Source: Minisyncoccota bacterium (GTDB taxonomy: Bacteria > Patescibacteriota > Minisyncoccia > Phycocordibacterales > SBAW01). Taken from it: DNA of 64,000 bases. The position numbers and the translations under genes are program-made. The stretch covers positions 1 to 64,000 of the forward strand of contig DASZWM010000006.1 in assembly GCA_035546615.1 (NCBI GenBank), written 5' to 3'. Position 1 is the stretch's first letter. Each line of letters opens with the position of its first letter. Shown in pieces: positions 47,301 through 50,300 of this stretch. The notes beneath the pieces are model-generated. The model ran no database searches. It was not told where the DNA came from and saw only the letters and a program-made list of their open reading frames with translations.

Positions 47301-50300
47301 ATCGGCCCGTACAGCCTCATCACTCAGCAGCCGCTCGGCGGCAAGGCGCAGGGCGGAGGCCAGCGCTTCGGCGAGATGGAAGTGTGGGCGCTCCTGGGCT
47401 ACGGCGCGGCATATACGCTGCGCGAAATGCTCACTATCAAATCCGACGACATCGTCGGCCGCTCCGCCGCATTCGACGCCATTGTCCGCGGCGAGCGCAT
47501 CAACCATCACTACGCGCCCGCATCGTTTAACGTGCTGCTCCATACCCTTCGCGGCCTCAGCCTCGACGTCGAGCTCATGCGGGGCGGCGAGGCGGTAAAG
47601 GGCGTCAAAAAGACGCCGGGCGCCGAGGTCTCCGACTTCGACTCCGTCCGCATCCGCCCCGCCAGCCCCGAGAAGATACTCGAGTGGTCGCACGGCGAAG
47701 TTACCAAGCCCGAGACCATCAACTACCGCACCCAGCGCCCCGAGAAGAACTCGCTCTTCGACGAGAAGATATTCGGTCCCGAGAAGGACTACGAGTGCTA
47801 CTGCGGCAAATACCGCGGCATCCGCTATAAGGGCATTGTCTGCGAGAAGTGCGGCGTCGAGATAACCCGCGCCATAGTTCGCCGCGAGCGCATGGGCCAT
47901 GTCGACCTGGCGGTGCCGGTGGCGCACGTCTGGTTCCTCCGCGCCATCCCGTCGCGCCTTTCCATGGTGCTCGGCATCCCGGCCGGCGACCTCGAGAAGG
48001 TCGTGTACTTCGCGGGCTACATCGTCAACGAAATCCATAAGTCTGAAAAAGAGCGCATCGTCGGCGAGCTCGAAGCCGAATACAAGATGAAGATGAAGAA
48101 CCTTCAGGACGAGAAGTCCAAGGACAAGATGAAGGAGCTCTTCCTCGAGGCCAAGCGCGACATCGACAGCCTCGAAGTCGGCGCGGTGCTCGACGAGCCC
48201 AAGTACCACCGCTTCGCCATAAAGTACGGAGCGATGTTCGAGGCGGGCATCGGCGCCGAGGCGCTCTATGCGCTCTGCAAGAGCCTCAATATCAAGCAGA
48301 TGATCAGCGATACCGAGACCGCGCTTGAAGACGCGGGCGCGGCGGACCGCGAGAAGTTCGGCAAGCGCCTTTCGGCCTTGCGCGCGATGTCCCGCGCAAT
48401 GGTGCGTCCCGAGTGGATGTTCCTCACGCGCATTCCGGTCATTCCGCCGGGGCTCAGGCCCATGGTGGCGCTGGACGGCGGCCGCCACGCGACATCCGAC
48501 GTCAACGACCTCTACCGCCGCGTCATCAACCGCAACAACCGCCTGAAGAAGCTCCTCGAGATCCATGCGCCGGACGTTATTCTGCGCAACGAGAAGCGCA
48601 TTCTTCAGGAAGCGGTGGACGCGCTCATCGACAACTCCATCCGCCACGGGGGTGCCGCCTACTCTGCAACCATGCAGGCCCGCCAGCGCCCGCTGAAGTC
48701 CCTTTCCGACAACCTCAAGGGCAAGCACGGCCTCTTCCGCCAGAACCTCCTCGGCAAGCGCGTGGACTACTCCGGCCGCTCCGTTATCGTCGTCGGTCCC
48801 GAGCTCAAGCTCAACCAGTGCGGATTGCCTAAGCACATGGCGCTCGAGCTCTTCCGCCCGTTCGTCATCGGCAAGTTGCTTGAGAAGGAACTCGCATACA
48901 ACATCCGCGGCGCCGGCCGTCTCATAGACGAAGGCGTTCCGGAAGTGTGGGCGATACTCGAAGACATCATCAAAGACAAGTACGTGCTTCTCAACCGCGC
49001 TCCTACGCTCCACCGCCTCGGCATCCAGGCGTTCCAGCCGGTCCTCATCGAGGGCAACGCCATCCAGCTGCACCCGCTCGTATGTCCGGCCTTCAACGCG
49101 GACTTCGACGGCGACCAGATGGCCGTGCACGTGCCGCTCAGCCCAGAAGCGCAGGCGGAAGCCCGCGAAATAATGGCCGCGCACCGCAACATCCTGAAGC
49201 CGGGCAACGGCGAGCCGGTCGTCGCGACCAAGCTCCTCGACATTCTTCTCGGCGTCTACTGGATGACCAAGGAAGTGGAGGGCATGAAGGGCGAAGGCCA
49301 GGCCTTCCAGTCGCCCAACGCCGCTATTCTCGCGTACGACTACGGCGCGGTAGGATTTCAGGCGAAGATCAAGGTGCTCCCGAGCGACAAGGAAAAGTAC
49401 GCGCAGTACGACGGCAAGCTCTTCGAGACCACCGTCGGCCGCCTCCTCTTCAACACCGTCTTCCCGAACGACTACGCATACATCAATACGCCTATCGACA
49501 AGAAGGGCATGGCGAAGCTCGTGGACAACCTCATCGCGCGCTACGGCCTTGAGAAGATCCCGGAAATAATGGACCGCATCAAGAACTTCGGCTTCCGCTA
49601 CGTGACCCAGTCCGGCATCACCTGGTCGCTCGACGACATCAAGATCCCGGCCGACAAGCACCGCATCGTGGAGGTCGCGCAGAAGAAGTCCGACGAGATT
49701 CAGCGTCACTGGCAGGACGGCCTCCTCTCCGAGGAAGAGCGCTACCGCCTCAATCTTGAGGTCTGGCACGCGGCCAAGGCCGATGTCGAGAAGCTCATCC
49801 CTGCGACCCTGCCTATCAACGGCCCGGTTTCCGACATGCTCAAGTCTGGCGCCCGCGGCTCGCTTGCGCAGATGACCCAGATGGCCGGCATGAAGGGCCT
49901 CATCGCATCGCCTACAGGCGAGACGATCGAGCTCCCGGTCACCAAGTCCATGAAGGAAGGCTTGTCTCCTATAGAATACTTCACCACCACGCACGGCTCC
50001 CGCTCGGGCCTCGCATCCACCGCGCTCTCGACCGCGAAAGCCGGCTACCTCACGCGCCGTCTCTTTGACGTAGCGCAGGACGTTGTTATCGGCGAGGAGG
50101 ACTGCGGCACCAAGGAAGGCCTCACGGTCAAGCGCGAGTCCGCATCCGGCATCGGCACTTTCTTGGCGCAGAACATCACCGGCCGCTACCTGGCGGGAGA
50201 TGTCGAAGCCGACGGCAAGACGCTCTTCAAGAAGGGCCACTTCATCACTTCAGTAGAGGCTAAGCAGATAGAAGATGCGGGTATCGCAAGCGTGTATACC

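What the first reader, a model, noticed from the sequence alone, without database searches (positions are those of the whole stretch)
47560..47700. In-frame rpoB-rpoC fusion producing a single 2325-aa beta-beta' polypeptide
The RpoB C-terminal region (...[24 protein letters not shown]) runs without a stop through a short linker ([20 protein letters not shown]) into the RpoC N-terminus ([16 protein letters not shown]...CYCGKYRG...CEKCG). Fused rpoBC is established for Helicobacter and Wolbachia but is rare. In a high-GC reduced genome it would be an independent occurrence.
Basis: partly seen in the sequence, partly recalled or inferred. Interest (0 to 1): 0.55.

Follow-up and report, generated by a model that had tools for sequence, protein, structure and literature searches.

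The report
Natural rpoB–rpoC fusion in Paceibacteria
The two largest RNA polymerase subunit genes really are joined into one gene here, and this holds across a whole clade of uncultured "Paceibacteria", as an independent repeat of the fusion known from Helicobacter; it is real and apparently undescribed, but it is a known kind of event.

Summary
One open reading frame, 44316..51293 (+), runs from a complete RpoB through a short linker into a complete RpoC, with no stop or frameshift. The real start is almost certainly Met42 (nt 44439), which gives 2284 aa rather than 2325.

It is not an assembly error. About 87 protein clusters (75-100% identical) from NCBI, JGI, ENA, Logan and MGnify assemblies carry the same fusion. 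All 6 clade members retrieved as DNA (5 of them without using gene calls) are in frame. No split copy of this clade turned up.

Sequence identity and a bootstrapped tree place the clade (one genome is labelled Ca. Adlerbacteria) among Paceibacteria that have separate rpoB and rpoC genes with tiny spacers (median about 17 nt). A second fused clade lies elsewhere in the class. So the fusion arose at least twice here, independently of Helicobacter.

The linker is about 18 aa, made of the β C-tail and the β' N-tail. It is the least conserved stretch locally, and its length varies from 17 to 24 aa. Catalytic motifs are intact.

Most likely mechanism: stop-codon loss in a very short spacer produced a tethered β::β' chain. 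It is a new member of a known kind, of moderate interest. No paper describing it was found.

The parts
44316..51293 (+). Maximal ORF (2325 codons plus stop) containing rpoB and rpoC in one frame
44439..51293 (+). Likely true fused rpoBC coding sequence (2284 aa plus stop), starting at Met42 of the maximal ORF
   Evidence: Nearly all full-length homologues start MR(N/E/Q)QKFF. The 100%-identical NCBI protein HVV15325.1 is 2284 aa. Translation from 44439 gives 2284 aa.
44454..47579 (+). β (RpoB) module, ORF aa 47-1088. It ends ...[19 protein letters not shown].
   Evidence: NF001616 aligns to aa 47-1088, model positions 5-1095 of 1096. Pfam finds Rpb2 domains 1, 2, 3, 45, 6 and 7. GEMEVWA and QLSQFMQQ are present.
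47577..47579 (+). In-frame ATG (Met1088) at the end of the β module. It is the only ATG, GTG or TTG codon in the junction of this window.
   Evidence: Codon listing. The 30 nt upstream are GC-rich, unlike the AT-rich upstream regions of real gene starts here. The Met is absent in clade members L083, L161, P0030 and P0079.
47580..47633 (+). Linker [18 protein letters not shown] (about 18 aa), built from the β C-terminal tail plus the former β' N-terminal tail
   Evidence: HMM and PDB alignment limits. KTPGAE matches the N-terminus of a separately annotated RpoC, MNSNYKNPGAETDQFEAI. This is the least conserved stretch across 87 clusters, with length 17-24 aa. Codon differences are 66 synonymous and 71 nonsynonymous, against 221 and 34 in the flanks.
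47634..51290 (+). β' (RpoC) module, starting at [33 protein letters not shown]
   Evidence: TIGR02386 aligns to aa 1111-2297, model positions 2-1144 of 1147. ORF aa 1104 aligns to β' residue 3 of B. subtilis and M. tuberculosis chains and residue 13 of E. coli.
47796..47852 (+). β' N-terminal zinc-finger motif [19 protein letters not shown]
49095..49115 (+). β' catalytic Mg-binding motif NADFDGD
44172..44199 (+). Sigma-70-like promoter match (TTGACG, 16-nt spacer, TATACT) about 240 nt upstream of the likely start
   Evidence: This is a consensus match only.
51679..54632 (+). dnaG (51679..53292) and rpoD (53400..54632), immediately downstream. The same neighbourhood is found in a fused relative.
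   Evidence: Pfam. Same gene order in L161.

Best explanation
This is a genuine, vertically inherited, in-frame fusion of rpoB and rpoC, fixed in one clade of Paceibacteria (Patescibacteria/CPR). It encodes a single tethered β::β' RNA polymerase chain of about 2284 aa.

Shown by the evidence: the ancestors had separate, adjacent genes with a spacer of only a few codons, as the nearest relatives still do. The fused chain consists of the β C-terminal tail joined directly to the former β' N-terminal tail, with no foreign sequence. This junction now evolves as a loosely constrained linker of about 18 residues whose length varies and whose frame is always kept.

Inferred: loss of the rpoB stop and of the rpoC start produced the fusion. 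By analogy with the Helicobacter enzyme and the engineered E. coli fusion, the chain folds into a normal core enzyme. The β C-terminus and β' N-terminus are held to lie close together in the clamp region of solved polymerases (recalled knowledge, not checked here). The tether would enforce 1:1 stoichiometry and turn β-β' association into an intramolecular step. It may be nearly neutral rather than adaptive.
For: - Continuous ORF with complete RpoB and RpoC, both above curated cut-offs, and intact catalytic, Zn-finger and trigger-loop motifs.
- 87 clusters at 75-100% identity, from five independent data sources, are all fused. Partial proteins P0085, P0086, P0087 and P0090 also span the junction. 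No split RpoB of this clade appears above the 61%-identity standalone RpoB hits.
- DNA retrieved by flanking peptide patterns, without gene calls, gives 5 of 5 clade members in frame (window, L001, L081-L083). L161, retrieved by protein look-up, is also in frame.
- These DNAs differ at many synonymous sites, so they are independent sequences.
- NJ tree with 100 bootstraps: the clade has 100% support, and its sister group is unfused L074/L084/L062.
- Both halves have the same nearest unfused neighbours: 80-83% identity for β and 71-76% for β', against 63-67% and 57-62% to the other fused clade.
- Unfused relatives have rpoB-rpoC spacers with a median of about 17 nt.
- The linker motif KTPGAE equals the N-terminus of a separately annotated RpoC.
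- The linker is the least conserved local stretch, with length 17-24 aa.
- Precedent: the Helicobacter/Wolinella fusion makes one polypeptide, and an engineered E. coli fusion assembles into an active enzyme (PMC1557499; PMC1750930).
Against: - There is no protein-level evidence that a single roughly 250-kDa chain exists.
- No read-level data were available for this particular assembly.
- The geometry of the tether could not be measured. The AlphaFold model of a 500-aa junction fragment was unusable (mean pLDDT 51.7).
- An in-frame ATG (Met1088) sits at the end of the β part in most clade members.
- This genome shows no clear Shine-Dalgarno usage, so internal initiation cannot be ruled out from motifs alone.
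- The database listings are capped (8000 candidates; 600 pattern rows), so the survey of the clade is a sample, not a census.
Confidence: 0.85

Rival explanations
1. Assembly or sequencing artefact: a stop codon or frameshift between rpoB and rpoC was lost in this MAG.
For: This is a single metagenome-assembled contig and no reads were available. A different lineage, the P0088 cluster, does contain both fused and split forms that differ at a poly-A run (KKKK | MNSNYK...), the kind of place where indel errors occur.
Against: The window junction has no homopolymer run. The same fusion is present in 87 clusters from NCBI, JGI, ENA, Logan and MGnify. It is also present in 5 further independent DNA loci that differ at many synonymous sites. 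Linker length differences between clade members are whole codons.
Confidence: 0.02
2. One gene but two proteins: β' is made separately by internal translation initiation near Met1088, or the linker is cut by a protease, so the mature enzyme has ordinary separate subunits.
For: An in-frame ATG lies at 47577, right at the β/β' boundary, in most clade members. Genes in this window lack obvious Shine-Dalgarno sites, so a missing one proves little. The linker is poorly conserved and probably exposed.
Against: The Met is not conserved within the clade. It is absent in L083, L161, P0030 and P0079, and L161 has no ATG anywhere in its linker. In the window no other ATG, GTG or TTG codon exists in the linker. 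The 30 nt upstream of Met1088 are GC-rich coding sequence, unlike the AT-rich regions upstream of the other starts examined. No promoter-like site lies near the junction on the + strand. In Helicobacter the fused gene yields one polypeptide (PMC1557499).
Confidence: 0.1
3. The fused gene was acquired horizontally from another lineage that already had a fusion (Helicobacter/Wolinella, Wolbachia, or the second fused Paceibacteria clade).
For: Fused rpoBC genes exist in several unrelated lineages.
Against: Scores are far below the curated cut-offs of both fused-family models. Both halves are most similar to unfused Paceibacteria neighbours and much less similar to the other fused clade. The tree places the clade inside an order-level group of unfused genomes with 100% bootstrap. 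The local gene order is shared with a 78%-identical relative.
Confidence: 0.02

Closest known systems
Helicobacter/Wolinella fused rpoBC (β::β' of about 2890 aa; Zakharova et al. 1998 and 1999, as cited in PMC1557499 and PMC9696931; NCBIfam NF007172)
   Same: The order is the same, β then β', in one reading frame. The junction is a short linker between the β C-terminus and the β' N-terminus. The fusion is fixed in a clade and absent in sister groups, so it is a rare genomic change usable as a clade marker.
   Different: The origin is independent: NF007172 scores 2103 bits against a cut-off of 5372, and the protein nests in Paceibacteria. The protein is much smaller (2284 aa) and lacks the large lineage-specific insertions. 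The host is an uncultured, small-genome CPR bacterium. No biochemical confirmation exists. I could not retrieve the Helicobacter linker sequence itself for a residue-level comparison.
Second fused-family model, NCBIfam NF011417 / PRK14844
   Same: A single-ORF β/β' architecture.
   Different: The score is 1977 bits against a cut-off of 4632, so this protein is not a member. The phylum is unrelated.
Engineered E. coli rpoB-rpoC fusion (Severinov et al. 1997, as cited in PMC1750930 and bioRxiv 10.1101/2021.11.05.467461)
   Same: It shows that a head-to-tail β-β' tether is compatible with assembly of an active polymerase. That is the mechanism proposed here.
   Different: It is an artificial construct, whereas this is a natural fusion maintained across a clade.
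Second fused clade in Paceibacteria (clade B: L011, L012, L016, L022, L110, L111, L114, L115, P0092-P0095, P0122) and sporadic fusions (Mycoplasma wenyonii WP_014849752.1; Anaerolineaceae and Deltaproteobacteria MAGs)
   Same: The architecture is the same. Clade B belongs to the same class and also has unfused sister lineages with 3-6 nt spacers.
   Different: Clade B has a shorter linker (for example LYENEGDRKDAF) and is only 57-67% identical. It sits on a different branch, next to unfused L113/L118. Across the natural fusions compared, linkers range from about 0 to about 55 aa and share no sequence.

Membership tests
Bacterial RNA polymerase β subunit (RpoB; NCBIfam NF001616 / TIGR02013) | Full-length match above the curated cut-off | tested here: met
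   NF001616 scores 1452.5 bits against 896, over aa 47-1088 and model positions 5-1095 of 1096. TIGR02013 scores 1432 against 801. All Rpb2 Pfam domains are present.
Bacterial RNA polymerase β' subunit (RpoC; TIGR02386) | Full-length match above the curated cut-off, plus the catalytic NADFDGD motif and the N-terminal Zn finger | tested here: met
   TIGR02386 scores 1466 bits against 963.5, over aa 1111-2297 and model positions 2-1144 of 1147. NADFDGD, CYCGKY...CEKC and the trigger-loop motif are present.
Natural β::β' fusion (architectural class) | rpoB and rpoC in one reading frame with no stop or frameshift at the junction | tested here: met
Natural β::β' fusion (architectural class) | The fusion is reproducible in independent genomes of the lineage, so it is not an artefact | tested here: met
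   87 fused clusters from five data sources. Window, L001 and L081-L083 were retrieved without gene calls and are fused; L161, retrieved by protein look-up, is also fused.
Natural β::β' fusion (architectural class) | A single polypeptide is present in the assembled enzyme | not testable with these tools
   This needs proteomics or biochemistry. The only indirect evidence is the lack of a conserved internal start codon.
Helicobacter-type fused β/β' (NCBIfam NF007172, PRK09603, equivalog) | Score at or above the curated cut-off of 5372 bits | tested here: not met
   2102.8 bits
Second fused β/β' equivalog (NCBIfam NF011417, PRK14844) | Score at or above the curated cut-off of 4632 bits | tested here: not met
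   1977.3 bits
Independent origin within Paceibacteria | The fused clade is nested among unfused relatives, and both halves have the same nearest neighbours | tested here: met
   NJ tree with bootstraps: 100% for the clade, 100% for the enclosing group, 77% for the unfused sister group. This is a distance tree on about 850 columns, not a full ML analysis.

The most novel reading that the evidence does not exclude
rpoB-rpoC fusion may be a recurrent, selected trait of ultra-small Patescibacteria rather than a one-off accident. Very short rpoB-rpoC spacers, together with a rise in GC content, would make stop-codon loss easy. Cells holding very few polymerase molecules would benefit from obligatory 1:1 synthesis and intramolecular assembly of β and β'. 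That would explain why the fusion became fixed at least twice, and possibly four to six times, within one class.
Probability: 0.2. Interest if true: 0.5.

Novelty: new member of a known kind. Interest (0 to 1): 0.4.

Why it matters
- It adds well-supported, independent natural β::β' fusions in a deep, uncultured bacterial radiation. This shows that tethering the two catalytic subunits is a repeatedly accessible state and not a quirk of Helicobacter.
- It gives a clean rare-genomic-change marker for a Paceibacteria clade.
- It is a practical warning for annotation and phylogenomics. NCBI and JGI name these 2284-aa proteins simply "subunit beta'". As far as I recall, rpoB and rpoC are both standard single-copy markers, so a fused gene can be mishandled.
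- The compact 2284-aa single-chain core lacks the lineage-specific insertions that enlarge the E. coli subunits. It could be a convenient minimal polymerase for structural or synthetic-biology work.

Tried and rejected
- AlphaFold2 on a 500-aa junction fragment (ORF aa 901-1400) with a 12-sequence alignment gave mean pLDDT 51.7 and pTM 0.41. I drew no conclusion about the linker from it and ran no fold search.
- A PDB sequence search with the junction found only separate β' chains at the top, and no fused chain that could serve as a structural reference.
- I could not get the Helicobacter linker. Zakharova 1999 (PMC93870) is not held, and no Helicobacter sequence was among the retrieved proteins. 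I compared the linker with 14 other natural fusions instead.
- Six literature searches were run. None found a report of fused rpoBC in Parcubacteria, Patescibacteria or CPR. One search looked only for papers citing the Helicobacter and E. coli work.
The 'query residues 1-170 matched' column could not be used as a test of fusion, because adjacent separate genes also give full coverage. I therefore re-tested every locus for frame and stops myself.
- Several junction-spanning representatives in the 1.84-billion-protein search look like frameshifted or read-through gene calls rather than true fusions (for example P0121, P0125, P0133). I did not count them.
- I treated the fusions in P0088 (a poly-A junction, with fused and split forms within one 90% cluster) and P0089 (a single sequence) as uncertain.
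- Rfam at gathering thresholds found no RNA element near the gene, only one tRNA at 13423-13495.

Full report
**1. Is it there?**

Yes. The ORF listing reports one ORF, 44316..51293 on the + strand, of 2325 codons. Its translation reads straight through the reported junction...[70 protein letters not shown]....

Pfam finds every Rpb2 (β) domain followed by Rpb1 (β') domains 1-5. NCBIfam places a complete RpoB at aa 47-1088 (NF001616, 1452 bits against a cut-off of 896, model positions 5-1095 of 1096). It places a complete RpoC at aa 1111-2297 (TIGR02386, 1466 bits against 963.5). The catalytic NADFDGD motif, the β' Zn finger, GEMEVWA, the rifampicin-cluster-like QLSQFMQQ and a trigger-loop motif are all intact.

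One correction applies. The first 41 codons of the maximal ORF are not conserved. Nearly all full-length homologues start at the Met equivalent to nt 44439 (MRNQKFF...), and the identical NCBI protein (HVV15325.1, "Candidatus Paceibacterota bacterium") is 2284 aa. The product is therefore 2284 aa, not 2325.

**2. Where exactly is the junction?**

β homology ends at about Met1088 (nt 47577-47579). In PDB alignments, ORF residue 1104 pairs with β' residue 3 of the B. subtilis and M. tuberculosis chains and with residue 13 of E. coli. The linker is therefore about 18 residues, [18 protein letters not shown] (nt 47580-47633).

It contains no foreign sequence. A separately annotated RpoC from a related lineage begins MNSNYKNPGAETDQFEAI.... 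The conserved K-T-P-G-A-E of the linker is thus the old β' N-terminal tail, and RGGEA... is the old β C-terminal tail.

**3. Is it an artefact?**

No.

- A search of 5.8 billion clustered proteins returned 87 clusters at 75-100% identity. Those that are full length are about 2245-2300 aa, and all carry both β and β' domains. They come from NCBI, JGI, ENA, Logan and MGnify assemblies.
- The truncated members (P0085, P0086, P0087, P0090) also span the junction.
- The next-best hits after the fused proteins are standalone RpoB at 61% identity or less. So no split version of this clade was seen among the candidates scored.
- To avoid circularity with gene calls, I retrieved DNA by peptide patterns on either side of the junction and re-tested frame and stops myself. 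All five clade members found this way are fused: the window, L001 and L081-L083. L161, fetched by protein look-up, is fused too.
- These DNAs differ at many synonymous sites (221 synonymous and 34 nonsynonymous codon differences in the flanks), so they are independent sequences.
- The window junction has no homopolymer run.

**4. How the linker evolves.**

Across the 87 clusters the linker is the least conserved stretch of the region, with majority-residue frequency of 20-60% against 90-100% in the flanks. Its length ranges from 17 to 24 residues, with a mode of 19. Among five DNA sequences the linker shows 66 synonymous and 71 nonsynonymous codon differences, against 221 and 34 in the flanks. 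This is the pattern expected for a tether: its sequence is loosely constrained but its reading frame is always kept.

**5. Phylogenetic placement and number of origins.**

I built a neighbour-joining tree from about 430 aa of the β C-terminal part plus about 430 aa of the β' N-terminal part, with the linker excluded and 100 bootstraps. The results were:

- The window's clade (WINDOW, L081-L083, P0084, P0079) has 100% support.
- Its sister group is the unfused L074/L084/L062 (77%).
- The whole set lies in an order-level group (100%) made mostly of unfused genomes labelled Taylorbacteria, Zambryskiibacteriota and similar.
- The one named genome in the clade is "Candidatus Adlerbacteria bacterium T7_bin-136" (L001).

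Both halves of the protein have the same nearest unfused neighbours, at 80-83% identity for β and 71-76% for β'. The fusion therefore arose in situ and was not imported.

A second fused clade, clade B, contains 12 sequences in the tree; a thirteenth fused locus, L012, was not included in it. It has short linkers such as LYENEGDRKDAF, is 57-67% identical to the window, and has 77% bootstrap support. It sits elsewhere in the tree, next to unfused L113/L118 (100%). There are therefore at least two well-supported independent fusions within Paceibacteria.

Further candidates are P0089 (sister to unfused L142 at 100%, but a single sequence), P0091/P0096, P0097 and P0088. The P0088 90%-identity cluster contains both fused (2282 and 2296 aa) and split (1083 plus 1234 aa) forms. 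Its junction lies at a lysine/poly-A run, LDVELKKKK|MNSNYK.... It may be a real, very recent fusion or a homopolymer error, and I leave it open.

Outside the CPR, full-length fused representatives also exist. They include Mycoplasma wenyonii (WP_014849752.1, 2648 aa, from a complete genome), an Anaerolineaceae MAG and a Deltaproteobacteria MAG. Linkers in these natural fusions range from about 0 to about 55 aa and share no sequence.

**6. How it arose (inference).**

In 32 unfused genomes of the enclosing group, the rpoB stop and the rpoC start are separated by a median of about 17 nt. The three closest sisters have spacers of 2, 5 and 12 nt. One caveat is that the retrieval method favoured in-frame arrangements. 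With such spacers, a single stop-codon substitution or a small indel is enough to fuse the genes.

The loci from fused clades are more GC-rich than those of their unfused neighbours: 0.49-0.58 against 0.33-0.52 for the window's clade (clade A), and 0.45-0.58 against 0.40-0.46 for clade B. This fits the idea that rising GC content erodes AT-rich stop codons. It rests on only two events, however, and is only a lead.

**7. How it probably works.**

The established precedents are these. In Helicobacter and Wolinella, rpoB and rpoC are fused and made as one polypeptide of about 2900 aa (PMC1557499; PMC9696931). An engineered E. coli β-β' fusion assembles into a functional polymerase (PMC1750930; bioRxiv 10.1101/2021.11.05.467461).

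By analogy, the Paceibacteria chain should fold into a normal core enzyme. The tether would link the β C-terminus to the β' N-terminus, would enforce 1:1 stoichiometry, and would make β-β' association intramolecular. Whether this is advantageous or nearly neutral is unknown.

The main rival is that two proteins are still made. The evidence against it is as follows:

- The only candidate start codon in the window's junction is Met1088.
- That Met is missing in L083, L161, P0030 and P0079.
- Its upstream sequence is GC-rich coding sequence, unlike the AT-rich regions upstream of real starts in this window.
- No promoter-like site lies near the junction on the + strand.

Proteolytic cleavage of the linker cannot be excluded from sequence alone.

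**8. Comparison with known families.**

The protein works like the Helicobacter-type fusion but is not a member of that family. It scores 2103 bits against a cut-off of 5372 for NF007172, and 1977 against 4632 for NF011417. Its phylogenetic position is inside Paceibacteria.

Six literature searches were run. None found a report of fused rpoBC in Parcubacteria, Patescibacteria or CPR. One further search looked only for papers citing the Helicobacter and E. coli work. The library does not cover most subscription journals, so "undescribed" is provisional. Database annotators label these proteins simply "subunit beta'".

**9. What did not work.**

An AlphaFold2 model of a 500-aa junction fragment was of too low confidence to use (pLDDT 51.7). 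The PDB holds no fused chain detectable with the junction query. I could not obtain the Helicobacter linker sequence.

**10. Verdict.**

The fusion is real, fixed across a clade, independently evolved and apparently undescribed. The kind of event is already known and is known to be tolerated, so I class it as a new member of a known kind, of moderate interest (0.4). The most interesting aspect is the recurrence within one class of ultra-small bacteria.

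Noticed in passing
window 39653-54632; L161 1-15902: rpoBC is not in the classical rplKAJL-rpoBC-rpsLG arrangement. It is preceded by rnr (- strand), rpsP, a KhpA-like KH protein, an HD gene and trmD, and is followed directly by dnaG and rpoD. The same order, without the HD gene, is found in a 78%-identical relative.
   Followed up: partly
window 42661-43500: An HD / YfbR-like 5'-deoxynucleotidase gene lies in the lowest-GC stretch of the window (GC 0.50 for 42-44 kb, against about 0.59 elsewhere). It is absent from the syntenic position in L161. It may be a recent insertion.
   Followed up: partly
window 44172-44438: A sigma-70-like promoter match (TTGACG, 16 nt, TATACT) lies about 240 nt upstream of the likely rpoBC start, leaving a long leader. 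The first 41 codons of the maximal ORF lie in this leader and are not conserved. Rfam found no known element there.
   Followed up: partly
proteins P0088, P0271-P0284: One 90%-identity cluster of a related lineage holds both fused (2282 and 2296 aa) and split (1083 plus 1234 aa) rpoB/rpoC forms. The junction lies at a lysine/poly-A run (LDVELKKKK|MNSNYKNPGAE). This is either a very recent fusion polymorphism or a homopolymer indel error.
   Followed up: partly
proteins P0158, P0287, P0291, P0098, P0099, P0129, P0152 and others: Full-length fused rpoBC proteins of 2520-2850 aa occur in other unrelated lineages. These include Mycoplasma wenyonii (from a complete genome), an Anaerolineaceae MAG and a Deltaproteobacteria MAG. 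Their linkers range from about 0 to about 55 aa.
   Followed up: partly
loci L001, L081-L083, L161 against L074, L084, L062 and others; clade B against L113, L118: Loci from both fused clades are more GC-rich than those of their nearest unfused relatives (0.45-0.58 against 0.33-0.52). This fits GC-driven loss of stop codons, but it rests on only two events.
   Followed up: partly
loci L003-L005, L008, L010, L012, L016, L044, L062: Many GTDB species representatives titled 'uncultured Candidatus Saccharibacteria bacterium' group with Paceibacteria/Parcubacteria in the RpoB/RpoC tree. One locus with a CPR-type sequence is titled 'uncultured Klebsiella sp.' and another 'Gammaproteobacteria'. The record titles look unreliable.
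   Followed up: no
proteins P0121, P0125, P0133, P0134, P0171 and others: Some junction-spanning representatives in the 1.84-billion-protein library read through an rpoB-rpoC intergenic region, or look frameshifted. They are probably gene-calling or assembly artefacts and not true fusions.
   Followed up: no
window 46767-50240 (- strand) and other long antisense ORFs: An 1157-aa ORF and several ORFs of 150-490 aa lie antisense to rpoBC. They are typical shadow ORFs of GC-rich coding DNA and are not genes.
   Followed up: no
window 55048-56295 (- strand): A 415-aa ORF downstream of rpoD has no Pfam match at E<=0.001. It is followed by a PD-(D/E)XK nuclease-family gene at 56334-57149.
   Followed up: no
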